The translations under genes and the position numbers were made by a program. The notes under the pieces were generated by a model. It had not been told where the DNA came from. It was given only the letters and a program-made list of their open reading frames with translations, and did not search any database. This document shows positions 1-21,572 of a DNA stretch of 24,192 bases, one piece after another. Origin of the DNA: a virus (lineage: Duplodnaviria > Heunggongvirae > Uroviricota > Caudoviricetes); IMG/VR virus record IMGVR_UViG_2713896773_000026. The stretch is one strand, 5' to 3'. Positions within the stretch are counted from its first letter, which is position 1, and each line of letters starts with the position of its first letter.

Positions 1-1053
1 TTACGGGGTAATGCCAACCGCTGCCGCCACTTTGTCGCCACTTGGCAGCGTTGCCAGAGGATTGAAACGGAGCGCCGTTTCCAGATGATCCGGTGCCAGA
101 TGTGCGTAACGCATAGTCATTTTTATATCGTGGTGTCCGAGAATTTTTTGTAAGGCCAGAATATTTCCACCCGACATCATGAAGTGCGCCGCAAACGTAT
201 GGCGCAGAACGTGTGTGAGTTGACCGCGAGGGAGCACGATAGACGTTTTTTCCATCACGGATAAAAATTGAAAATAGCAGTCTGTGAAGAAATTGAACCC
301 ATCAAGCGCCATGATCTCTTCGTAAAGCTCTTTACTGATAGGGATGCTTCTGTTTTTCTTCCCCTTCGTTCTGACAAAGGTAATTCGGTATTTGGTCACC
401 TGTGAGCGGGTAAGATTTACGGCTTCACGCCAGCGTGCGCCTGTGCTTAAGCATATCTTAACTACCAGTGCCAGAATTGGGTCCTGACGTTTGCAATCAG
501 CCAGCAATTCAACAATCTGCTCATGGGTAAGCCATGCCATCTCTTTTTCTGCGATGGTGAATTTTCGCATGTTCTCCAGTGGATTCGGATACGACCATTC
601 GCCCAGACGGGATAGTTCGCTAAAAACACTACTTAGATAGCTTTGCTCCAGGTTAATGGTGACCGGGCTTGCTCCTTTCTTCCATTTCTCGCTGAAGTAG
701 ATCTCGCCTGTCAGGCGTTTATCTCGATAGTGGGCAAACATTTTAGAGGTGAGATCGGTTGCAAGAGGATTGCCCAGAGCGTCAACCATCAACAGCAATT
801 TGTCATAGACATGCTGCCCAGCTGTCAGAGATTTACCATGTAGTTTGAACCATAGCTCAACCACGTCTTTCAGTGTTCGACGATCCACTGATTCACCCAG
901 CCAGGGCTTTGCTTCGGTTTCTTCCATCGTGTGGCGCTCAAAAGCCAGTGCTTCGCCTTTGGTGGCGAATTGTTTACGCACACGACGCCCACTTCGTCCG
1001 GCGGGGTAACATTCACAAAGCCATTTCCCAGTGGTGAGTTTTCGTACTGCCAT
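1..1053 (-). CDS. int: Phage integrase (tyrosine recombinase, P2/186 Int family)
   Basis: C-terminal HxLRHTFA...Y catalytic region (HVLRHTFAAHF, MTMRYAHL). N-terminus MAVRKLTTGKW aligns with remembered P2 Int MAIKKLDDGRY; GGAGGG RBS upstream of the ATG at 1053. The longer ORF to 1209 is rejected. Confidence 0.9.
   Translation of the reverse strand: MAVRKLTTGKWLCECYPAGRSGRRVRKQFATKGEALAFERHTMEETEAKPWLGESVDRRTLKDVVELWFKLHGKSLTAGQHVYDKLLLMVDALGNPLATDLTSKMFAHYRDKRLTGEIYFSEKWKKGASPVTINLEQSYLSSVFSELSRLGEWSYPNPLENMRKFTIAEKEMAWLTHEQIVELLADCKRQDPILALVVKICLSTGARWREAVNLTRSQVTKYRITFVRTKGKKNRSIPISKELYEEIMALDGFNFFTDCYFQFLSVMEKTSIVLPRGQLTHVLRHTFAAHFMMSGGNILALQKILGHHDIKMTMRYAHLAPDHLETALRFNPLATLPSGDKVAAAVGITP
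19..40. repeat. attL: attL core (left copy of the 22-bp direct repeat cgctgccgccactttgtcgcca)
   Basis: 21/22 identical to 21338..21359; lies in the last codons of the integrase gene; flanks differ on both sides. Confidence 0.65.
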
Positions 1054-1241
1054 AAAAAATGCCCTCCAGTAGAGAGCATTTTTACTGTATGTATAACCAG
1101 TGTCAATGTATGAAATCCTACGACCATACATCTCACTGAAGCCATAATGAAGTTGGCTATTCTTTTTGCTATGTGAGCATGTAACTTTTGCGGTTAACCT
1201 GCGGCTCATTTTTATTTTAGACGCAGATATAAAAGCAAAAG

Positions 1242-1433
1242 TTATCGTGAGTTTTTAGTACAGATTTTTTTGGATTTACTAATAGTTCCATCATTGCAAA
1301 CAAATTTTCCATCGGAGGTACAGTGAGAGACCCCTCCCTTTTTCCCAGAACAAGGATAATTTTTAGCATAGGTAGTTAGTGGGCTTAATAACAAAGAGCA
1401 TGATAAAACCACAAAAAATACTTTACCAAGCAT
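1242..1433 (-). CDS. Small secreted Cys-rich protein (63 aa, signal peptide plus about 40-aa basic mature part with 4 Cys); moron in the cI-int operon
   Basis: Strong GGAGG RBS 5 nt upstream; hydrophobic N-terminus [23 protein letters not shown]; AT-rich relative to the flanking cI and int. Confidence 0.55.
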
Positions 1434-1448
1434 AGTTTCCTCCCGGTA

Positions 1449-2024
1449 TTATCTAACATATTTAACTGTTAAACTTATAATTTTACCAATTATTTCAATG
1501 TCTTCTATCTTACATTCGAAGGCTCTGTTTCCACCCTCGACGAAGATTCTTCCACCGGGTAAACGAGTAATGTCACGGATCGTTACTTCGCCATCAATAC
1601 TTATTACCCATTTACCATCACGTATGTCATCAAATTCTTTATCACAAATAAATTCAGAATTGTTATCTGTGATGACAAAAGGTTTTTTAAACGTAGAGGG
1701 TAGAAATCTCTTATCAAAAATATAAAAACCGTCTTCACGCAAGGCACCATCAGATAATACATATTTAGCAACTTCCATAGTATTTGTATTACCTGAAGTT
1801 TGCTTTGAACCATGTCCGGTTGTGAGCCAATTAAGCGAGGTGCCCGTTTCAAGGGCGCACTGGATTACCCATTCTGCTGGGAATGAGTCACGCATGTAGC
1901 GTGTGGCGAGTGTACTTTTAGAGATTCCTAAATGATCGCACAACGCCTGTCGAGTCTTGAATCCATAAGCTTCTACCATGCGCTCTATGGCGCCTCGTCC
2001 GCCTTTCTCCAAATTCATGGTCAC
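1449..2024 (-). CDS. cI: CI-type immunity repressor (N-terminal HTH, C-terminal oligomerisation domain), 186 CI-like
   Basis: 191 aa; HTH-like segment QALCDHLGISKSTLATRYMRD; position between int and the divergent apl/cII operon. Confidence 0.8.
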   Translation of the reverse strand: MTMNLEKGGRGAIERMVEAYGFKTRQALCDHLGISKSTLATRYMRDSFPAEWVIQCALETGTSLNWLTTGHGSKQTSGNTNTMEVAKYVLSDGALREDGFYIFDKRFLPSTFKKPFVITDNNSEFICDKEFDDIRDGKWVISIDGEVTIRDITRLPGGRIFVEGGNRAFECKIEDIEIIGKIISLTVKYVR

Positions 2025-2914: not shown

Positions 2915-3211
2915 ATGCTGACGAAAGAACCATCATTTGCATCGCTGCTGGTAAAACAAAGCCCGGCAATGCACTACGGTCACGGCTGGATCACGGGTGA
3001 GGATGGAAAACGCTGGCATCCATGTCATTCACAAGATGAATTGCTGTCTGAATTGACCACGAGGAAACGGAGAAAGTCCAAATGTATGCGGCAGAAAGTG
3101 AAGTGGTTTATCAGTTTCGTTACAGAGGGGAGAGTTATTCAGTACCTGAAGATGATTTGCTCTGTTGCTATCCGTCATTGTCGGGCGATGGCAGTTACTT
3201 TTTCACGTTAA
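2915..3211 (+). CDS. Hypothetical early protein (98 aa); overlaps the next ORF in another frame
   Basis: ATG at 2915 with GAGG RBS right after the cII stop; the frame stays open to 3211. Confidence 0.35.
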   Translation: MLTKEPSFASLLVKQSPAMHYGHGWITGEDGKRWHPCHSQDELLSELTTRKRRKSKCMRQKVKWFISFVTEGRVIQYLKMICSVAIRHCRAMAVTFSR

Positions 3212-8433: not shown

Positions 8434-9552
8434 ATGTATCTTTTCAAGTATTACCGTCCGGACTTCTTCTTCGAGAAAGCTATTCGTTATAATGAATTAT
8501 ATTTTTCCGCTCCTGCGCAATTGAATGATCCCAATGATCTCAATATAGATTATCGCTTCGATAATAAATTGAAATTATGGGATATTTTATTGCGTTCTCC
8601 TTGCGATAAATCCTATAAAAATTTGAGTCACATATTGGATTTGAGTGATTTGAAAATACATAAGGGATTGAATCGTATTTTTAGAGGAAAAAAAATAAAA
8701 AGTAGCATTGAGTCATTAGATAGCCTGTTTGACTCACACGTTGATGAGATACGTAAGATCATAGATGATGGTTTACTACCTATCAATGTGATTAATTCTG
8801 CTATTTATGGAAATATTCCTGAACCACGCCAATATTTGGTTTCACTTTGCGAGAACAGTATCAAAGAAAGGTTGTATAGGAAGATAGTTCCTGCAGTATT
8901 CAGTGTGTCATTTTCAGCTAATGCGTTAGATCGTATGATGTGGGCGCATTATGCTGCTGGCTTTAGTGGTTGTGTTGTGATTTATGAAACGCAGGATTTT
9001 AATATTGATGGTATACCCTATACTGGAATGAAGCTAAGAGAAAATTTATTTTCATCAGATAAATTTAATTTTCCAGTTAAGCCAATAAAATATAGTAATC
9101 AGGCTAAAGAGGTTTCACTTCTAGACCCAAGCGCAAATGTTGCAGAGTTATTTTTAACTAAAAATAGATTTTGGAGATATGAAGCTGAATATCGAATGTT
9201 TATTCCGGAGGCAAATGCAGGAATAGGGAGTGAGCGGCATGTTCAAAGACGCGTAAATCGAAATATTGGACATATTTTTCATCATGATGCTAATGTTGTT
9301 AAAGGGATCATTTTTGGTCCTAGAATGTGTGAAATGAAAAAAGAAAGCATATGGAATTGTATCAAGTCAAATATGGAGAATTCAAATTCAACAATATGTT
9401 ATTTTTTTGACTCTGAGTTATTAGCATCAGGAAAGATTACTATTTCAAAAGGGCAACGAGCGGAAAAAATGAAAAATTTCACTTTGTTCAGGAACAAGTT
9501 AAGTCAGACGGAAATGGCTAAAGTTTTGAAGGAAATTGGCATTACGAACTAA
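8434..9552 (+). CDS. AT-rich cargo gene: 372-aa protein with a DUF2971-like N-terminal motif; candidate stand-alone anti-phage or accessory protein
   Basis: Long ORF, markedly AT-rich versus the prophage backbone; N-terminus LFKYYRPDFFFEKAIRYNELYFSAPAQLNDPND resembles the DUF2971 signature as remembered; own terminator downstream. Confidence 0.6.
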   Translation: MYLFKYYRPDFFFEKAIRYNELYFSAPAQLNDPNDLNIDYRFDNKLKLWDILLRSPCDKSYKNLSHILDLSDLKIHKGLNRIFRGKKIKSSIESLDSLFDSHVDEIRKIIDDGLLPINVINSAIYGNIPEPRQYLVSLCENSIKERLYRKIVPAVFSVSFSANALDRMMWAHYAAGFSGCVVIYETQDFNIDGIPYTGMKLRENLFSSDKFNFPVKPIKYSNQAKEVSLLDPSANVAELFLTKNRFWRYEAEYRMFIPEANAGIGSERHVQRRVNRNIGHIFHHDANVVKGIIFGPRMCEMKKESIWNCIKSNMENSNSTICYFFDSELLASGKITISKGQRAEKMKNFTLFRNKLSQTEMAKVLKEIGITN

Positions 9553-9618
9553 CCTAACAACAGTGCATGCCTATGCTGCCTGAATTTGCATGACCGTTTG
9601 AGGATCGTTTTTGCTAAG

Positions 9619-9642
9619 GCCCGCCAGAACTGGCGGGCTTTT
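9619..9642 (+). terminator. Rho-independent terminator after the DUF2971-like gene
   Basis: GC stem GCCCGCC/GGCGGGC with a 6-nt loop, followed by TTTT. Confidence 0.6.
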
Positions 9643-9687
9643 GCGTGGATCAGGCACCTGCATGAAAACCACTACACAAAGCGGGCA

Positions 9688-9706
9688 GGCGTGGCGGGGA
9701 TACGAG
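9688..9706. other. cos: cos-like sequence (GGCGTGGCGGGGATACGAG) in a GC-rich patch
   Basis: First 13 nt match the remembered 186 cohesive end GGCGTGGCGGGGA; the location between the accessory region and the portal side fits the P2/186 prophage map. Confidence 0.35.
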
Positions 9707-9719
9707 CGCGCGCAGCGGG

Positions 9720-9748
9720 TGGAAACTCAGATTTGAATGTTGTATAAA
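9720..9748 (+). promoter_or_regulatory. Candidate retron operon promoter (-35 TGGAAA, 17 bp, TG-adjacent -10 TATAAA)
   Basis: Hexamers about 30 bp upstream of the effector start; weak -35. Confidence 0.25.
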
Positions 9749-9777
9749 AGATGGGATCATTCTGAGGAAAAGTGGAT

Positions 9778-10683
9778 ATGAAAAAGAAAACTATTCCGGA
9801 GTTGCAGAAGCAAAATCTGGCAAATTTAATTAAAAGTCGGCTTTTTCAACAGAAAAATAAAAATAAAGTTACTGTTTTCCTTTGCGGGGGCGATTTGAAT
9901 GATCCGTTTTTTTGTAGAAATAAAGTTAAAAGAGTGTTGGAAACACATCCCAAAATAGAAATATTCTATCCTGAGGAGTTGTTTGATGAGCTTTTGTATG
10001 GACAAGGTCAGCATAGTCTTTTAAGTTTGGAGAATATTTTAGCTGATTCAGTCGATGTTATTATTATTATTCCTGAAAGCCCAGGGTCTTTCGCTGAATT
10101 GGGCGCATTTTCAAATAATGAAAAACTGTGCAAAAAAATGATATGTCTTCAGGATGACAAATTCAAACTTAAAAAAAGCTTTCTTAATTATGGGCCTATA
10201 AAACTGCTTCGGCGTGCTAATAGCGGTGCAGTATTGCGAGGAGATTTGTCGACTCTTGAAAGCTTGAGTACAGGTAAAGCTTTTTATAATAGAATTATAA
10301 AAAGTATTAATGACATCAAAAAAAATAACCCAGTTAATCACTCAATAGATAATATTCTTCACGCTCGGCGTTTTATACTGCCATGTATATATTTGATGGA
10401 TGGTATAGATAATATACTTCTATATGAGCTATTACATTTGGTGACTAAGAAAGATGCTATTCTTTGTGAAATTATCGTTAAGTCTGTTATTTCAAGCTTG
10501 ATTAAAGAGTCAATAATTAGGCGTTCAGTTCAAGGATACCATATTACAGAAATTGGTATGCAATACGTTCTTGAGCATTTTGATCGAAAGGCTTTGGACA
10601 ATCTACGACTGGATATGATGAACTTCGAAAATCGTGGTAAAACAATACTCCACTATGATAGGATGCGTTTTGCGCACCCTTAG
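9778..10683 (+). CDS. Retron effector, nucleoside 2-deoxyribosyltransferase-like (NDT) N-terminal domain with a C-terminal putative DNA-binding domain
   Basis: VTVFLCGGDLNDP and IIIIPESPGSFAELGAF motifs typical of the NDT fold; GAGGAAA RBS; 3' end overlaps the retron a1 repeat; AT-rich. Confidence 0.7.
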   Translation: MKKKTIPELQKQNLANLIKSRLFQQKNKNKVTVFLCGGDLNDPFFCRNKVKRVLETHPKIEIFYPEELFDELLYGQGQHSLLSLENILADSVDVIIIIPESPGSFAELGAFSNNEKLCKKMICLQDDKFKLKKSFLNYGPIKLLRRANSGAVLRGDLSTLESLSTGKAFYNRIIKSINDIKKNNPVNHSIDNILHARRFILPCIYLMDGIDNILLYELLHLVTKKDAILCEIIVKSVISSLIKESIIRRSVQGYHITEIGMQYVLEHFDRKALDNLRLDMMNFENRGKTILHYDRMRFAHP

Positions 10684-10831
10684 CGAGTGGCTTCTCCGGA
10701 AGTTCACTGGACAGTGTTTCGCTGTCCTACATACAATCTGAAGTTTTACCAGTTCCCTCATTGAAAGGAGAACATCTCCCGATGTTCTCCTTTCACTTCG
10801 GAATCTGATTTTTATGACGTAAGGGTGCGCT
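10671..10831 (+). ncRNA. msr-msd: Retron msr-msd non-coding RNA (msDNA template), flanked by a1/a2 inverted repeats
   Basis: a1 TGCGCACCCTTA (10671..10682) and a2 TAAGGGTGCGC (10820..10830) form an 11-bp inverted repeat; msr hairpin GGACAG-tgtttcg-CTGTCC (10709..10727); msd hairpin AAAGGAGAACATC-tccc-GATGTTCTCCTTT (10764..10793); ends 2 nt before the RT start. Confidence 0.8.
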
Positions 10832-10832
10832 C

Positions 10833-11807
10833 ATGACTTCCGCAACACCATCTCAGGTTTTTCGCTTACGCAATCTTGGATTGCCTGTTATGTCCTCTTT
10901 AGAGGATATGTCTAGAGAAATGCGTTTATCAGTAGACATACTCCGGTTGTACATTTATCGTGCTGACAAATACTATAAGGTTTATTCGTTGCCAAAAAGA
11001 GATGGCAAGAGATCCCGCATCATTTCACAGCCATCACGTGAGCTGAAGGCATTGCAAGCTTGGGTGTTAAGAAACATCCTTGATAAGTTACATTCATCCC
11101 CATTTTCCAAAGGCTTTGAAAAAGGGCAATCAATATTAAATAATGCCAGCCCACATGTAGGAGCTAACTATGTATTAAATATTGATTTAGAAGATTGTTT
11201 TAATACTATTCTGATAGAGAAAATCTATACTGTTTTTCATTCTCTGGGGTATAACTCTACTATTTCTAATGCTTTAGCAAGATTGTGTTCATTTAATGGT
11301 TCGCTACCTCAAGGTGCACCATCTTCTCCAAAGATTGCGAATCTTGTTTTAACTAAATTAGATTATAGAATACATGGATATGCAGGTAGTAAGGGGATCG
11401 TATTTACTCGATATGCCGATGATTTGACTTTATCTGCTCAATCTTTAAAAAAAATACTTAAAGCTAAGTCATTTGTATGCTCTATAATACCAAGTGAATC
11501 TTTGAAGGTTAATTATAATAAAGTTGCGATTCATGGCCCCAAAGCAAGGAAGGAGGTTACTGGGCTCGTTTTATCTATTGATAATGTTGGAGTTGGCAGA
11601 ATACGTTATCGCGAAATTAGAAGTAAGATCCATTATCTGGCAGTAAAAAGAAATTCTGATTTCGAACATGTTAAAGGACTTATTGCGTTTGTTAAAAGTG
11701 TAGACAAGAAAAACTATAGAAAATTGATGACTTTCTCAAATAAAATGTCTGAAGCATATGGGGTTGATCTAAGTGTTCTTTTTCCTAAAAACAAAAAGGC
11801 CATTTAA
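10833..11807 (+). CDS. ret: Retron-type reverse transcriptase
   Basis: 324 aa; RT motifs NIDLEDCF, LPQGAPSSP, YTRYADDLTLS (YADD at 11412..11423) and the retron-specific VTG motif (RKEVTGLV). Confidence 0.9.
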   Translation: MTSATPSQVFRLRNLGLPVMSSLEDMSREMRLSVDILRLYIYRADKYYKVYSLPKRDGKRSRIISQPSRELKALQAWVLRNILDKLHSSPFSKGFEKGQSILNNASPHVGANYVLNIDLEDCFNTILIEKIYTVFHSLGYNSTISNALARLCSFNGSLPQGAPSSPKIANLVLTKLDYRIHGYAGSKGIVFTRYADDLTLSAQSLKKILKAKSFVCSIIPSESLKVNYNKVAIHGPKARKEVTGLVLSIDNVGVGRIRYREIRSKIHYLAVKRNSDFEHVKGLIAFVKSVDKKNYRKLMTFSNKMSEAYGVDLSVLFPKNKKAI

Positions 11808-11822: not shown

Positions 11823-12854
11823 TTAGGTAATTGAATAACTCACGAAATTAATAACTTCTTCATTTATCCATTCGTTCAGCTCTTCTAGTCTTTTTTGTAA
11901 AGGGATGAGTTCATTCCTCACAAAAACATTAGCAGCTTTCTCTACATCCCCAAATCCTCCAACATTATTAGGCATAATCCCCATCATTTGCGGTGGCACA
12001 CGATGCGCCGCCATCATGTCATCCCGGCTCACGTTCTTGATGTTCAGAAACTCATCCTTCGCCGCGACCTCTGACAACGGGATAATCTGAAGCCCGTCCT
12101 TTTTGCCGTTAGGCGAGTACATAAACAGGTTGCGGAAGTTACCCGGTCCTTTGGCGCTTTTCATCGCGTTGCGGAGGTTGTTCACGTCCTCCTGGTTCTG
12201 CGCGGCATCGGTCATGTACATGATGAAGCCAGCATGACTGCCGTTTATGTAATACTTTCGACGGAACAGCGTGGCGGACTCATTGAGCAGGGCGGACGGA
12301 ATAGCAGAAAGATAGCCGGGCAGGCCATAGATCTCCTGATTTATGTCCGGTTCCATCAGATGGAAAATGCTGCCTTTCGTGAACTGATACGGTTGCGTGG
12401 TCATGCCGTATTGCACAAACCAGTAGGTATCTAGGTCTAATCCACGTCGGGTGTATTTTGCCAGCGCAGGCTCAAGAGCGATAACTTCACCGAATCGGTT
12501 CGTGCGTTTCTCCAGGTAGGCGTTACCAAATACCAGATAGTCCTGCACAAAACGCGAAAAAGCCTGCTGGCTGAGCAGCGGATGAGGGATATAGGTACTG
12601 GTCAGAATGTTGCACTTTACTGCAATCGGGGAACTGTGATGCACGGCGGCGCGGAAGGTGCGCGCCAGTCCGTCAAAGCTGACGGGCGGCTCATACCAAC
12701 GGTCCATCTGTACGCATTCCACATAATCCAGCAGTTCTCGGCGGTCCAGAACAGGAACGGGATCGCCGAAGCTGAATGCTTCGGCTGTAGTTTGACTTTT
12801 AAGCTGGATCTGTTTCGTCGCCGCAGCGCGGTTCTTCTTACTCTTTCCCATCAA
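11823..12854 (-). CDS. Q: Portal (capsid portal protein, P2 gpQ family)
   Basis: 343 aa; position and orientation next to the terminase gene as in P2 (Q-P leftward operon). Confidence 0.85.
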   Translation of the reverse strand: MMGKSKKNRAAATKQIQLKSQTTAEAFSFGDPVPVLDRRELLDYVECVQMDRWYEPPVSFDGLARTFRAAVHHSSPIAVKCNILTSTYIPHPLLSQQAFSRFVQDYLVFGNAYLEKRTNRFGEVIALEPALAKYTRRGLDLDTYWFVQYGMTTQPYQFTKGSIFHLMEPDINQEIYGLPGYLSAIPSALLNESATLFRRKYYINGSHAGFIMYMTDAAQNQEDVNNLRNAMKSAKGPGNFRNLFMYSPNGKKDGLQIIPLSEVAAKDEFLNIKNVSRDDMMAAHRVPPQMMGIMPNNVGGFGDVEKAANVFVRNELIPLQKRLEELNEWINEEVINFVSYSIT

Positions 12855-14554
12855 AAAATCTCCACAATATTGCTGGTATTGGCGGATTCGCCCTGCAGCG
12901 GTTCGTTAAACAGTGCGTGCATCGTTGCCCAGGCCAGATCGGCGTGGCTGGCTTCTTCGCTGCGGCTGGCTTCATAGGTCGGGCGGTTGCCACTGGCGGT
13001 GGTGGCGCGACGGATTGCCATAAAGGACTGCGCTATGTCGGTGTGTCCGGCGTCAAACTCCAGACGGCGGTGGCTGATAATGTCGTAGGCCTTGAGTACC
13101 AGGGCGTTTTTAACGTTGGGGTTGTAGACAAACTCCCGGACGGCAGGAAAAAACGCTTTCACGTTCTCGTAAACCCCGTGACCAACGCCGGTTGAGTCGA
13201 TACCGATATAGGTCACGTTGTACTGTTCGGTCAGTTTTTTGATGGCGTCAGCCTGGGCGCGGAAGTCCATTCCGCGCCACTGGTGACGCTCAAGAATGCG
13301 GAACTTACCGCCCGGCACGGCTGGCGGCGCCACCACCACGCATCCGGCGCTGTCGCCGTTCTGCGTACCTTTCGCCGGGTCATATCCGATCCACACTTCG
13401 CGCCAGCCAAACGGGCGCAGGGCCAGTGCATGAAAGTCGGTCCAGACTTCCCAACTGTCCACCATGCACGCCTGCAGCTCGCTGAGTGGGAACACAGACG
13501 CGAGATCGTCCACGAACTCACACATCAGCAGGTTCTGGTATTCGTCCGGGCTGTACTCCATGCGCAACTGGTCGAGGTCGAACAGGTTACAGCCGCCGCG
13601 CACCGCATCTTCCACAGTGACTATCTGGCGGTACTGCCCGTCTGCGCACAGCAGGCCGGGGGCCAGATTGCTGTGGGACAGGTCGATGTCCACCTTATCG
13701 GCTTTGTTGCGCCCTCGGTTGAACAGCGCACCGGACCAGAACGGATAAGCACTGTGTGTCAGGCTGGATGGCGTGGAAAAATAGGTTTGTCGCCATTTTT
13801 TGTGAATAGCCATACCGGAAGCCACTTTGCGCAGCTCCTGGAATTTCGGTATCCAGAAATATTCATCCAGATACAGGTTGCCGTGGTAACTCTGGGCCGT
13901 GCGGGCATTGGTGCCGAGGAAGTACAGCGTGGCCCCGTTAGGAAGCACCATCGGATCGCCTTTCAGCTCCACCTCCACTTCTTTGGCGAAGTCGATGATG
14001 TACTGCTTAAAGACGTGGGCCTGAGCCTTGCTGGCGGAAAGGAAAATCTGGTTACGCCCGGTTAGCAGGGCGTCAATCAGGGCTTCACGGGCAAAATAGA
14101 AGGTCGCGCCGATCTGGCGTGACTTCAGCAGGTTGCGGATGCGGTTGGTTTTTCCGGCTTCCCACCAGTGGCGCTGGTAGTTGAACATGGAGGAATGGAA
14201 GATTTCTTCCAGCTTCTCAATCTGTTCATCGGTGAAAACGTTCTTTTCCGGCTGACGGCGCGGGCCTTTGTTGCGGTTGGCGACGTTAGGGTTTAAGTCG
14301 GCTTCGTTGCCGCCATTGTTAAACTTGCCGATCCGCGCATGGCGCTCCGACTGGCGCGCCAGCAGGTCAATCTCTTTGAAATCTTTCCCTTCTTTGTGCT
14401 CCTTCATAATGAGCTGGCAGTAGCGTGCGGCGGTGGTGAGCTGCATCTGATCCAGCGGCCCATAGTCACCCCACTTGTCGCGTTTTTTCCAGCTGTGAAC
14501 GGTTGCAACTTTCTCGCCCAGCATTTCAGCAATGCGGGCTATCTGCCCAGACAC
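12851..14554 (-). CDS. P: Terminase large (ATPase) subunit, P2 gpP family, 5'-truncated at a deletion junction and probably non-functional
   Basis: 567 aa; nuclease-domain-like segments; the upstream in-frame sequence is antisense to the sheath gene, so the native N-terminus and promoter are missing; the GTG start is an ORF-caller artefact. Confidence 0.8.
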
Positions 14555-14562
14555 AGCTCGGC
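14540..14562. other. Deletion junction joining the terminase 5' region to the middle of the tail sheath gene
   Basis: Terminase homology (minus strand) ends and sheath homology (plus strand, from [11 protein letters not shown]) begins within about 20 bp; scaffold, capsid, small terminase, lysis, baseplate and fibre genes are absent. Confidence 0.7.
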
Positions 14563-15363
14563 GTTAAACCGCGCATTCTCGGCGTGCCAGGCCACGACAC
14601 CAAGGCGGTAGCTACTGAGTTGCTGAGCGTGGCGCAAAGCCTGCGTGGATTTGCTTACCTGTCAGCGTATGGCTGCAAGACGGTGCAGGAGGCGATCACT
14701 TACCGTGAAAACTTCAGCCAGCGCGAAGGAATGCTGATCTGGCCCGACTTTACTGGCTGGGACATGGTGCTGAATGCCGAAGCAACGGCATATGCCACCG
14801 CCCGTGCGCTTGGTCTGCGTGCCAAAATTGATGAGCAGACTGGGTGGCACAAAAGCCTGTCCAACGTGGGTGTGAATGGTGTCACCGGAATTTCTGCAGA
14901 TGTGTTCTGGGATCTGCAGGACCCGGCAACCGATGCAGGTCTGCTGAACCAGAACGACGTTACCACGCTTGTGCGTAAAGACGGTTTCCGCTTCTGGGGT
15001 TCCCGCTGCCTGAGTGATGACCCGCTCTTTGCCTTCGAAAACTACACCCGCACGGCGCAGGTGCTGACGGACACAATGGCAGAAGCGCACATGTGGGCAG
15101 TGGACAAACCGCTGAACCCGTCGCTGGCGCGCGACATTATCGAGGGCATCCGCGCCAAAATGCGCAGCCTGGTCAGTCAGGGGTATCTCATTGGTGGTGA
15201 TTGCTGGCTGGACGAGTCGGTGAACGACAAAGACACTCTGAAAGCCGGAAAACTCACCATCGACTACGACTACACGCCAGTGCCGCCACTTGAAAACCTG
15301 ATGTTGCGTCAGCGCATCACCGATCAGTACCTGGTGAATTTCGCCAGCCAGGTCAGCGCGTAA
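14543..15363 (+). pseudogene. FI: Tail sheath protein (P2 gpFI family), C-terminal two-thirds only
   Basis: Clear similarity to remembered P2 FI from about residue 130 ([11 protein letters not shown]...WPDF...[15 protein letters not shown]...[20 protein letters not shown]); no native start or RBS. Confidence 0.8.
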
Positions 15364-21359: not shown

Positions 21360-21415
21360 TCGTTAAAAAACAGTGTTTCTAACATCATGATTTTAAACAG
21401 CTTAAATTTCAGGCA

Positions 21416-21460
21416 ACAAAAAACCCATCAACCTTGAACCGAAATGGCGGGGTTGATGGG
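21416..21460 (-). terminator. Candidate rho-independent terminator downstream of ybjL
   Basis: 10-bp stem CCCATCAACC/GGTTGATGGG (17-nt loop) followed on the minus strand by a U-run (plus-strand A6). Confidence 0.4.
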
Positions 21461-21572
21461 CTCCACAAAATGGGGACATCAAAGAAAAGCAGTGGCACTA
21501 ATTAAGACTGATGCCCTGCGGAAAAGTTCTGCGGTTGTGCAAAAAAATTTCATTTTCAGGGCAACTTCAGTT

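What the first reader, a model, noticed from the sequence alone, without database searches (positions are those of the whole stretch)
1242..1433. Secreted Cys-rich mini-protein in the lysogenic cI-int operon
A 63-aa ORF with an excellent RBS sits between cI and int, co-oriented with both, so it should be expressed in the lysogen. It has a signal-peptide-like N-terminus and a basic mature part of about 40 residues with four cysteines, and is AT-rich relative to its neighbours. Genes at this position in temperate phages are often lysogenic-conversion or superinfection-exclusion morons.
Basis: partly seen in the sequence, partly recalled or inferred. Interest (0 to 1): 0.5.

Follow-up and report, generated by a model that had tools for sequence, protein, structure and literature searches.

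The report
Prophage-borne secreted YdcA-family mini-protein
The 63-codon ORF is a real, strongly conserved gene for a small exported, cysteine-rich, basic protein of the widespread but uncharacterised YdcA family, placed right after the repressor gene in the slot where related prophages keep anti-phage genes; what it does has never been tested.

Summary
Window 1242-1433 (-) is a genuine gene. It passes the curated cut-off of NCBIfam NF007463, matches PHROG 6000, and belongs to Pfam PF27300 (YdcA). It is intact in all 81 close copies examined, with pN/pS of about 0.05, and is full length in about 628 of 5426 complete E. coli genomes, including REL606 and BL21(DE3).

It encodes a Sec-type signal peptide and a 40-residue mature peptide with four Cys, net charge +7 and pI 9.6. 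There is no conserved lipobox. The ORF starts 15 nt after cI behind a GGGAGG Shine-Dalgarno site.

Phage 186 has nothing between cI and int. Sister prophages fill this gap with KAP NTPase (PDC-S20) or PD-Lambda-1 defence genes. Haemophilus phages HP2 and S2 carry an unannotated homologue overlapping the cI stop. In 16 of 80 species-level loci the gene follows a prophage repressor from one of two unrelated families.

[quoted passage not shown] It also occurs fused to secreted nucleases on mobile elements.

Best reading (inferred, about 0.4): a lysogen-expressed periplasmic factor that hinders entry of foreign DNA. Function is untested. It is a new member of a known, uncharacterised family; interest is moderate.

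The parts
1242..1433 (-). YdcA-family gene, 63 codons plus stop (stop at 1242-1244)
   Evidence: NF007463 scores 115.3 bits against a cut-off of 93. PHROG 6000 E 9e-34. Homologues carry PF27300:YdcA. pN/pS 0.05.
1365..1433 (-). Signal-peptide coding part (residues 1-23, [23 protein letters not shown]), with predicted SPase I cleavage after T-Y-A
   Evidence: Read directly from the sequence. In the family alignment the N-termini are unrelated in sequence but all hydrophobic, and A23 is at least 90% conserved. 104 of 108 family members have a hydrophobic N-terminus and only 7 of 125 a lipobox-like motif. No dedicated signal-peptide predictor was available.
1245..1364 (-). Mature 40-residue domain [40 protein letters not shown] (4 Cys, net +7, pI 9.64)
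   Evidence: Invariant columns P27 C28 S29 K32 G33 G34 C38 F44 C46 G49 S52 S54 K55 C58. AF2 pLDDT 84-91 over the domain. Homologous to the Dis2 lobes.
1439..1444 (-). Shine-Dalgarno GGGAGG, 5 nt upstream of the ATG, in the 15-nt gap after the cI stop
   Evidence: Read directly from the sequence.
1449..2024 (-). 186-type CI repressor gene, the upstream gene of the presumed pL transcript (PGAP starts it at the ATG at 2018)
   Evidence: Pfam Phage_CI_repr 2.8e-33 and Phage_CI_C 2.7e-29. RefSeq annotation in an identical E. coli locus.
1132..1448 (.). Variable cargo interval between cI and the conserved int-proximal element; here it holds only the YdcA-family gene plus about 110 nt
   Evidence: Similarity to prophages with other cargo ends at about 1131. 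The slot holds a KAP NTPase in Ec1117 and PM4-5 and PD-Lambda-1 in 813R9. Phage 186 has no gap.
1055..1083 (-). Conserved hairpin AAAAAUGCUCUCU-ACU-GGAGGGCAUUUUU, running into a U-tract that ends at the int ATG; it contains the int Shine-Dalgarno (1062-1067). Terminator-like and/or RBS-sequestering.
   Evidence: MFE -17.5 kcal/mol, z -5.0. The alternative stem GCCCUC/GAGGGC in Ec1117 and 813R9 keeps the pairing. Function is inferred.
1078..1106 (-). Promoter-like site TTGACA-17-AAAAAT upstream of int, conserved across prophages with different cargo
   Evidence: Consensus scan, 10 of 12 matches. Conserved in the alignment. Not shown to be active.
1..1053 (-). P2/186-type tyrosine integrase gene (true start at 1053, MAVRKLTTGKW...)
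   Evidence: Pfam Int_N and Phage_integrase. PGAP coordinates in the identical locus.

Best explanation
Shown: the ORF is a functional gene of the YdcA family (PF27300 / NF007463 / PHROG 6000). Its product has a Sec/SPase I-type signal peptide and a 40-residue, strongly basic, four-cysteine domain.

Inferred from the 186 paradigm and the 15-nt gap with a strong RBS: it is transcribed with cI from the lysogenic promoter(s), so the prophage makes it continuously. It is exported to the periplasm and oxidised to two disulfides.

Inferred from context: it is accessory cargo of the cI-int slot, which sister phages use for anti-phage systems.

Most likely mechanism (inference, not shown): the small cationic domain docks on a conserved anionic or envelope partner at the periplasmic face of the outer membrane. 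The candidates are nucleic acid in transit or an outer-membrane-associated DNA-transport machine. By doing so it hinders entry of foreign DNA, giving superinfection or entry exclusion that benefits the resident element. The nuclease-fused relatives on other mobile elements would be the 'bind and cut' version of the same module.
For: Gene reality and family:
-.
- Exported: conserved tripartite N-termini across unrelated sequences. K-12 YdcA is described as a predicted periplasmic protein with a signal sequence (bioRxiv 10.1101/2024.02.12.579971). The homologous Dis2 lobes are seen disulfide-bonded in a periplasmic complex (PMC8486379).

Expression with cI:
- 15-nt gap and GGGAGG.
- TAATG overlap with cI in HP2.
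- A co-oriented repressor lies within 150 nt upstream in 7 of 80 species-level loci and within 1.5 kb in 16, from two unrelated repressor families.
- Annotated pL/pE lysogenic operon of 186.

Defence-slot context:
-; PMC9122126 and PMC13586616.
- K139 glo is a precedent for a periplasmic immunity/exclusion gene in a P2-related phage (PMC4870250).

Link to DNA traffic:
- The domain is fused to Endonuclease_NS and SNase nucleases.
- All four fusions examined lie on mobile elements. One is in a P2-like prophage beside gpD/gpU/tape measure, and one is beside a T4SS coupling protein and GmrSD.
- It is homologous to the T4SS outer-membrane-cap protein Dis2.
- It occurs on 4-5 kb mobilisable plasmids.
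- At least 535 IMG/VR contigs encode a relative.
Against: - No phenotype exists for any family member in phage or DNA exclusion.
- There is no PADLOC hit and no sequence relation to known Sie, Cor, Llp or Imm proteins.
- Most family members are chromosomal with unrelated neighbours: 61 of the 80 species-level loci show no P2-like prophage hallmark (repressor, integrase, gpD or tape measure) within 4 kb. E. coli already has a chromosomal paralogue, which suggests a host-physiology role.
- The only reported phenotype of ydcA is sensitivity to 3-hydroxypropionate, plus reported acid induction (PMC7642389).
- Dis2 binds proteins (DotC, DotD, DotK), not DNA, and is dispensable (PMC12716638).
- Incoming phage DNA normally crosses the periplasm inside a conduit, so a soluble DNA binder may never reach it.
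- Nuclease fusions are a small minority (5 of 32 long members).
Confidence: 0.4

Rival explanations
1. Host-fitness moron. The prophage copy does the same unknown envelope job as chromosomal ydcA, for example tolerance to acid or organic-acid stress. It raises lysogen fitness rather than blocking other elements.
For: - 57% identity to K-12 YdcA with the same architecture.
- A ydcA deletion made E. coli W sensitive to 300 mM 3-hydroxypropionate. The paper cites acid (pH 5) induction via YdcI (PMC7642389).
- Many family members sit in ordinary chromosomal contexts.
- The gene is retained intact in a defective prophage.
Against: - The recurrent placement behind repressors of two unrelated families, and in a slot otherwise filled with defence genes, is not explained.
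- The nuclease fusions and mobile-element bias are not explained either.
- The 3-HP phenotype is a single report with no mechanism, and it was overridden by yieP deletion.
Confidence: 0.22
2. Adaptor for an outer-membrane-spanning machine, working like Dis2. It docks on lipoproteins or secretin-type complexes (T4SS, T2SS, type IV pili) and tunes or blocks them, for instance removing a pilus receptor or modulating conjugation.
For: - Each Dis2 lobe is homologous to the domain: hhalign 96.8%, Foldseek top hit with probability 0.95-0.98.
- Dis2 sits on the outer-membrane-cap surface and contacts the lipoproteins DotC, DotD and DotK (PMC12716638).
- Some UniRef entries for this very cluster are named 'Conjugal transfer protein'.
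- The gene lies next to TraD/Mob genes on small plasmids.
Against: - There are no T4SS genes in the window, and E. coli hosts of this prophage need not carry any.
- The window protein is a single lobe with 4 Cys, whereas Dis2 has two lobes and 5 disulfides.
- The extreme sequence conservation across alpha-, beta- and gamma-proteobacteria argues for a universal partner rather than a lineage-specific machine.
- The UniRef name has no traceable basis.
Confidence: 0.13
3. Periplasmic metal-binding or redox peptide. The four Cys, together with the nearly invariant His37 and Asp48, would bind a metal, or the Cys would act as thiol-disulfide redox centres, rather than form structural disulfides.
For: - C28, C38, C46 and C58 are invariant; H37 and D48 are at least 90% conserved.
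- The domain-only profile weakly resembles Ca-binding LDL-receptor class A modules (E 0.007-0.04).
- It is fused to metal-dependent nucleases.
Against: - In Dis2 the equivalent cysteines are seen as disulfides (PMC8486379).
- The periplasm with DsbA oxidises such Cys.
- H37 is replaced in some members, for example by S in P0052 and by Y, K or R in others.
- The LDL-A match covers only half the domain and is at chance-level E-values.
Confidence: 0.07
4. Cationic antimicrobial peptide or toxin, released on lysis or leakage, that harms competitors.
For: The mature product is small, Cys-stabilised and strongly cationic (pI 9.64). It is carried on phages and plasmids.
Against: - No immunity or export genes are linked.
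- A chromosomal paralogue is harmlessly conserved in E. coli.
- Net charge varies from 0 to +7 across the family.
- Sec export delivers the protein only to the periplasm.
Confidence: 0.04
5. Not a functional gene: a chance ORF in an AT-rich spacer.
For: It is short (63 aa), lies in an AT-rich block, and older annotations often lacked it (HP2 and S2 leave the homologue unannotated).
Against: - HMM E-values reach 1e-33 to 1e-34.
- 311 clusters at 50% identity match at E <= 0.001.
- It is intact in 81 of 81 copies with pN/pS 0.05.
- All four Cys are kept even where the 3' end was recombined (PM4-5).
Confidence: 0.01

Closest known systems
E. coli K-12 YdcA (b1419; Pfam PF27300, NCBIfam NF007462)
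   Same: Same family and architecture: a signal peptide plus one approximately 35-residue PCSGxKGG...C...FVCNDGxxSxSKKxC domain. 57% identity.
   Different: The window gene belongs to the sister model NF007463. It is prophage-borne and sits behind cI instead of between rydC/cybB and other chromosomal genes. It is also more basic. Neither protein has a known function.
Legionella pneumophila Dis2 (Lpg0823), Dot/Icm T4SS outer-membrane-cap subunit (PDB 7MUC/7MUD chain AN)
   Same: Each Dis2 lobe aligns to the YdcA domain: 48% identity over 25 columns, hhalign probability 96.8%. Dis2 is the only meaningful Foldseek hit. Both are periplasmic and disulfide-rich.
   Different: Dis2 has two lobes with five disulfides and is built into a 13-fold T4SS cap, contacting DotC, DotD and DotK. 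The window protein is a single free domain in a host without Dot/Icm. The Dis2 literature calls it species-specific and without homologues (PMC8486379, PMC12716638).
Vibrio phage K139 Glo (periplasmic protein of the lysogeny region, described as an immunity/exclusion gene)
   Same: It is a periplasmic protein encoded by a P2-related temperate phage and is described as the K139-family immunity gene (PMC4870250). I recall from memory, without checking, that it lies in the lysogeny region and that exclusion was shown by Nesper et al. 1999. The cI-int interval of K139-like phages is a published defence hotspot (PMC9122126).
   Different: No sequence relationship was detected; no Vibrio phage appears among the tblastn hits. 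Glo is a much larger protein. The analogy is positional and topological only.
Small envelope exclusion proteins of mobile elements (Cor, T5 Llp, RP4 TrbK, F TraT)
   Same: They are small, exported and made by the resident element, and they act at the envelope to stop incoming DNA. This rests on my own knowledge of these systems.
   Different: Those are lipoproteins or membrane proteins with known receptor or machine targets. The window protein has no conserved lipobox and no homology to them.
Periplasmic or secreted nucleases of mobile elements that block DNA uptake (C. jejuni prophage Dns; ICE-borne DNases of V. cholerae)
   Same: They are MGE-encoded exported proteins that act on incoming DNA (reviewed in PMC12378983). 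YdcA-domain/nuclease fusions occur on a P2-like prophage and on ICE-like islands.
   Different: The window protein has only the accessory domain and no catalytic domain.

Membership tests
YdcA family (Pfam PF27300; NCBIfam NF007463 PRK10040.1-2; PHROG 6000) | Profile score above the curated threshold | tested here: met
   NF007463 scores 115.3 bits against a cut-off of 93, covering profile positions 1-58 of 58. PHROG 6000 E 9.2e-34, positions 1-56 of 56. Close homologues are pre-annotated PF27300 and named 'YdcA family protein'. The local Pfam copy lacks PF27300, so that model was not scored directly.
YdcA family (Pfam PF27300; NCBIfam NF007463 PRK10040.1-2; PHROG 6000) | Conserved motif with four Cys: P-C-S-G-x-K-G-G ... 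C ... F-x-C-x-D-G-x-x-S-x-S-K-x-x-C | tested here: met
   All invariant columns of the 36-sequence alignment are present in the window protein.
YdcA family (Pfam PF27300; NCBIfam NF007463 PRK10040.1-2; PHROG 6000) | N-terminal Sec signal peptide, single small domain | tested here: met
   Sequence features and the family-wide pattern. No SignalP-type predictor was available.
YdcA family (Pfam PF27300; NCBIfam NF007463 PRK10040.1-2; PHROG 6000) | Periplasmic localisation and disulfide bonding | not testable with these tools
   This needs PhoA fusions or mass spectrometry. Support comes only by analogy with Dis2 (PMC8486379).
Dis2 (Lpg0823)-type T4SS outer-membrane-cap subunits | Sequence and fold similarity to a Dis2 lobe | tested here: met
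   [not shown]
Dis2 (Lpg0823)-type T4SS outer-membrane-cap subunits | Two tandem lobes pinned by five disulfides | tested here: not met
   The window protein has one domain and four Cys.
Dis2 (Lpg0823)-type T4SS outer-membrane-cap subunits | Encoded in a genome with, and assembled into, a Dot/Icm-type T4SS | tested here: not met
   The window is a P2/186-like prophage with no T4SS genes.
Prophage superinfection-exclusion or lysogenic-conversion genes of the lysogeny operon | Located in the repressor transcript, expressed in the lysogen | tested here: inconclusive
   Position, the 15-nt gap, the RBS and the synteny in HP2 and 16 other loci support co-transcription. No transcript data were examined.
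Prophage superinfection-exclusion or lysogenic-conversion genes of the lysogeny operon | Exported envelope protein | tested here: met
   Signal-peptide features.
Prophage superinfection-exclusion or lysogenic-conversion genes of the lysogeny operon | Demonstrated exclusion or conversion phenotype | not testable with these tools
   No experiment on this family was found in the literature.
Known anti-phage defence systems (PADLOC-DB v2) | Match to a defence-protein model | tested here: not met
   The ORF matches 0 families, while neighbouring-slot cargo in relatives hits PDC-S20 and PD-Lambda-1.
Bacterial lipoproteins (Cor/Llp/TrbK-type exclusion lipoproteins) | Lipobox [LVI][ASTVI][GAS]C after an uncharged hydrophobic region, with Cys at about position 15-35 | tested here: not met
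   VLSC at residues 9-12 is too close to the N-terminus, has K4 within the six preceding residues, and is followed by more hydrophobic residues. C12 is not conserved. Only 7 of 125 family members have any lipobox-like motif.

The most novel reading that the evidence does not exclude
The YdcA domain is a previously unrecognised periplasmic module that mobile elements use to control DNA traffic across the Gram-negative envelope. It would act alone as an exclusion factor (phages, small plasmids), in tandem as a T4SS cap subunit (Dis2), and fused to nucleases as a 'bind and cut' barrier. The copy in this prophage would then be a one-gene, 40-residue superinfection- or entry-exclusion system, present in about 11% of complete E. 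coli genomes, including BL21(DE3) and REL606.
Probability: 0.25. Interest if true: 0.75.

Novelty: new member of a known kind. Interest (0 to 1): 0.45.

Why it matters
YdcA is one of the conserved E. coli y-genes that still has no function. This analysis ties it to three other things:
- a solved but unexplained T4SS subunit (Dis2, reported as having no homologues);
- the repressor-proximal accessory slot of P2/186/HP1-type prophages in gamma- and beta-proteobacteria;
- secreted nucleases on mobile elements.

If the prophage copy proves to be an exclusion factor, it would be among the smallest known. It would also give YdcA and Dis2 a biochemical handle. The test is cheap, because the standard laboratory strains BL21(DE3) and REL606 already carry the gene. 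If it is only a stress-tolerance peptide, the finding is an ordinary moron.

Tried and rejected
- **Local Pfam scan:** it gave only a sub-threshold GULLO2 hit, because that copy lacks PF27300. The family was found through NCBIfam, PHROGs and precomputed Pfam tags.
- **Domain-only PDB profile:** the Dis2 hit dropped to E 0.019 and was matched by LDL-receptor class A modules. I treat the LDL-A resemblance as Cys-rich convergence. The Dis2 link rests on hhalign, on the intermediate 'KMGG' two-repeat proteins and on Foldseek.
- **lpg1681 family hit:** E 0.09, not significant, so dropped.
- **Lipoprotein reading:** rejected.
- **Conserved functional partner:** clustering the neighbours of 80 species-level loci found none. 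The most frequent neighbours are prophage repressors, at 10 and 7 loci.
- **Terminator between the ORF and int:** the tool's scan found none on the minus strand. Folding revealed the pre-int hairpin.
- **Literature searches:** YdcA, PF27300, PRK10040, phrog_6000 and the RefSeq accessions gave no functional study. HP2 literature was not retrievable.
- **UniRef name 'Conjugal transfer protein':** it could not be traced to evidence and is not relied on.
- **Not done:** a second structure prediction, and additional IMG/VR scans with divergent family members.

Full report
**1. The observation**

- It starts 15 nt after the stop of a 186-type CI repressor gene (1449-2024; Pfam Phage_CI_repr and Phage_CI_C).
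- A GGGAGG Shine-Dalgarno sequence lies 5 nt upstream of its ATG.
- It is followed by a P2/186-type integrase gene (1-1053) on the same strand.
- Across the divergent promoter region lie apl/cox (2144-2365) and cII (2392-2907).
- The N-terminus has one Lys, a 15-residue hydrophobic core (mean Kyte-Doolittle 2.38) and T-Y-A before Lys24.
- The remaining 40 residues hold four Cys, eight Lys, one Arg and two Asp, giving pI 9.64.

The ORF is AT-rich at 34.4% GC, against 48.8% for int and 49% for the window. However, the 3' half of cI (32.6%) and the spacer to int (36.7%) are equally AT-rich, so the low-GC block is about 1054-1736 rather than the ORF alone.

**2. It is a real gene under strong constraint**

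The protein exceeds the curated cut-off of NCBIfam NF007463 (PRK10040.1-2; 115.3 against 93 bits). It matches PHROG 6000, a family of unknown function, end to end at E 9e-34. Its homologues in the 5.8-billion-protein database carry PF27300 and are named 'YdcA family protein'; Pfam's name for PF27300 is YdcA.

- It is 57% identical to chromosomal E. coli YdcA.
- A full scan of 1.84 billion representatives finds 311 clusters at E <= 0.001.
- Among 81 close copies (the window plus 80 IMG/VR loci) there are 12 nucleotide alleles but only 5 protein variants, all intact.
- Mean pS is 0.17 and pN 0.009, a ratio of 0.05. In the mature part the values are 0.23 and 0.007.
- The gene is full length in about 628 of 5426 complete E. 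coli genomes, including REL606 and BL21(DE3).
- RefSeq annotates it as 'hypothetical protein' or 'YdcA family protein'.

**3. Exported, not lipidated**

In the family alignment the N-terminal 20-25 residues are unrelated in sequence but always hydrophobic. They end in a small-x-small motif whose last Ala (A23) is at least 90% conserved. The domain that follows is nearly invariant: P27 C28 S29 K32 G33 G34 C38 F44 C46 G49 S52 S54 K55 C58.

- Of 108 family members whose domain starts within 45 residues of the N-terminus, 104 have a strongly hydrophobic leader.
- Only 7 of 125 have anything resembling a lipobox.
- Domain net charge averages +3.8 and ranges from 0 to +7; the window copy is at the top of that range.
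- The VLSC in the window protein is too near the N-terminus and is not conserved, so a lipoprotein reading is rejected.
- K-12 YdcA is described in the literature as a 57-aa predicted periplasmic protein of unknown function (bioRxiv 10.1101/2024.02.12.579971).

**4. Genomic setting: an accessory slot behind the repressor**

In the prototype phage 186, cI abuts int. The pL/pE lysogenic operon is cI-int-orf69 (annotated record). Here about 395 nt separate the two genes.

Similarity to prophages with other cargo stops at about 1131, so the variable interval is about 1132-1448. Sister prophages fill this slot as follows:

| Prophage | Content between cI and int |
|---|---|
| E. coli Ec1117 (identical Int protein) | A second CI-like protein plus a 505-aa KAP NTPase |
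| E. coli PM4-5 | The YdcA gene followed by a 443-aa KAP NTPase |
| Phage vB_EcoM-813R9 | A 558-aa protein |
| Klebsiella phage 4LV2017 | A 349-aa unknown protein |

The KAP NTPases match the PADLOC candidate system PDC-S20, and the 813R9 protein matches PD-Lambda-1. In PM4-5 the recombination joint lies inside the last codons of the YdcA gene, yet all four Cys are kept.

The literature already describes a defence hotspot between cI and int in K139-like P2 relatives (PMC9122126). It also describes a minor hotspot between integrase and primase in P2-likes (PMC13586616). K139 glo, a periplasmic protein called the K139-family immunity gene, is a positional precedent (PMC4870250).

**5. The arrangement recurs far beyond E. 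coli**

Haemophilus phages HP2 and S2 contain an unannotated 60-codon homologue. Its ATG overlaps the cI stop (TAATG), and it is followed by orf1(S) and int.

Among 80 species-representative genome loci (226 matched in all; alpha-, beta- and gamma-proteobacteria):

- 16 have a co-oriented prophage repressor within 1.5 kb upstream, and 7 within 150 nt.
- The repressors come from two unrelated families: 186-type CI and LexA/S24-type cI.
- Typically P2 gpD and the tape measure lie on the other side.

No other neighbour is conserved. The remaining loci are ordinary chromosomal sites.

The gene also occurs elsewhere:

- in the late region of Moraxella Mcat phages;
- on 4-5 kb mobilisable Moraxellaceae plasmids, next to TraD/Mob genes;
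- on at least 535 IMG/VR contigs.

**6. What the domain resembles**

A profile of the family hits one solved protein: Legionella Dis2 (Lpg0823; PDB 7MUC/7MUD chain AN).

- With the signal peptide included the E-value is 1.3e-5. With the domain alone it falls to 0.019, level with LDL-receptor class A modules.
- hhalign of the first Dis2 lobe against the domain profile gives 96.8% probability with 48% identity.
- Two-repeat 'KMGG' family members bridge the two at 50% identity.

Separately, 5 of 32 long family members are fusions of the domain to secreted nucleases of two unrelated folds (Endonuclease_NS and SNase), and others are tandem repeats. All four nuclease fusions whose contigs I read lie on mobile elements:

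- one in a P2-like prophage beside gpD/gpU/tape measure;
- one beside a T4SS coupling protein and GmrSD;
- two in integrase islands.

**7. Mechanism**

*Shown.* The ORF is a constrained gene for an exported Cys-rich basic mini-domain. It is accessory cargo placed directly behind the repressor.

*Inferred from the 186 paradigm and the spacing.* It is made with CI in the lysogen.

*Inferred from context and domain associations.* It acts in the periplasm near the outer membrane on a conserved partner, most plausibly to hinder entry of foreign DNA (exclusion). The nuclease fusions would be the catalytic version of the same idea. I put this at about 0.4.

The rivals, in order, are:

- a host-fitness role like chromosomal ydcA; its only reported phenotype is 3-hydroxypropionate sensitivity, and the paper also cites acid induction (PMC7642389) (0.22);
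- a Dis2-like adaptor of an outer-membrane machine (0.13);
- a metal or redox peptide (0.07);
- an antimicrobial peptide (0.04);
- a chance ORF (0.01).

The main points against the favoured model are these: there is no phenotype at all, there is no PADLOC match, most family members are chromosomal, and incoming phage DNA is normally shielded in the periplasm.

**8. Operon structure caveat**

Between the ORF and int lies a conserved element. It has a promoter-like TTGACA-17-AAAAAT (1078-1106) followed by a 13-bp hairpin (1055-1083) that contains the int Shine-Dalgarno and runs into a U-tract ending at the int ATG.

- Its MFE is -17.5 kcal/mol with z -5.0.
- Prophages with other cargo carry a different stem (GCCCUC/GAGGGC) that preserves the pairing.

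Read-through from cI and the YdcA gene may therefore terminate, or be untranslatable, before int. The ORF belongs with cI rather than with int.

**9. Verdict**

The gene is a new member of a known but uncharacterised family, in a location that makes an exclusion or defence role a reasonable and cheaply testable hypothesis. The Dis2 homology, the repressor-linked synteny (including an unannotated gene in HP2 and S2) and the nuclease fusions are the added value. Interest is 0.45.

Noticed in passing
window 1055-1106 (minus strand): A conserved int-proximal element. A promoter-like TTGACA-17-AAAAAT is followed by a strong hairpin that buries the int Shine-Dalgarno and runs into a U-tract ending at the int ATG. 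A different but still pairing stem occurs in prophages with other cargo. It is a possible terminator or translational gate that insulates int from the cI transcript.
   Followed up: partly
window 21415-21493 (minus strand): A full-length RybB sRNA gene (Rfam RF00110, 105 bits) whose 3' end faces the prophage. The prophage lies between rcdA and rybB, so its attachment site is probably the 3' end of rybB.
   Followed up: no
window 12851-15363: The prophage in the window appears defective. The terminase large-subunit gene is followed directly by an N-terminally truncated tail-sheath gene, then tube, tape measure, gpU and gpD. The capsid, lysis, baseplate and tail-fibre genes seen in the intact relative of strain 82.0311 are missing. 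The YdcA-family gene is nevertheless intact.
   Followed up: partly
[not shown]
   Followed up: yes
L002 3112-3876 (HP2 orf1(S)): The gene right after the HP2 YdcA homologue encodes a 254-aa protein with a signal-peptide-like N-terminus and a Pfam tRNA_anti-like domain (2.8e-13). As I recall, that family groups OB-fold nucleic-acid-binding domains, so this may be a second exported protein with a possible nucleic-acid-binding fold in the same lysogenic operon.
   Followed up: no
L166 (E. coli Ec1117) 525-2991; L167 (PM4-5) 1142-2473; L003 (phage 813R9) 1291-2967: The cI-int slot of sister prophages carries PADLOC candidate defence genes: KAP NTPase PDC-S20 and PD-Lambda-1. In Ec1117 it also carries a 307-aa protein with two CI-type HTH stretches plus the CI C-terminal domain.
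   Followed up: partly
L175 4001-4669; L174 4001-4921: YdcA-domain/nuclease fusions on mobile elements. A YdcA-SNase gene lies beside gpD/gpU/tape measure of a P2-like prophage. A YdcA-Endonuclease_NS gene lies beside a T4SS coupling protein and a GmrSD restriction gene.
   Followed up: partly
L169 (pGFJ6, 4.07 kb) 640-816; L171 (pA40P1, 5.4 kb) 2932-3105: Very small mobilisable or cryptic Moraxellaceae plasmids devote one of their 5-6 genes to a YdcA-family protein. It sits in a three-gene cluster next to a TraD or lipoprotein gene.
   Followed up: partly
window 8434-11807: Three ORFs (372, 303 and 324 aa; two with PHROG hits, one described as a polymerase, and one with no hit) lie between the replication gene A and the portal gene. 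This is the published main defence hotspot of P2-like phages, and the content differs from strain 82.0311.
   Followed up: no
mature domain, residues 36-58 of the ORF: The domain-only profile weakly matches LDL-receptor class A modules of VLDLR (E 0.007-0.04; C-x-x-x-F-V-C-N-x-G...C). The three-repeat family member P0064 carries a precomputed faint hit to DUF3761. This is probably Cys-rich convergence, but a wider superfamily of small secreted modules is possible.
   Followed up: no
L086 (JAEWTL010000113.1, labelled 'Bacillota bacterium' MAG): A 3-kb contig carries a cI/YdcA/int locus of the E. coli prophage type, with its YdcA-family protein 97% identical to the window's. It is almost certainly contamination of the MAG.
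   Followed up: no
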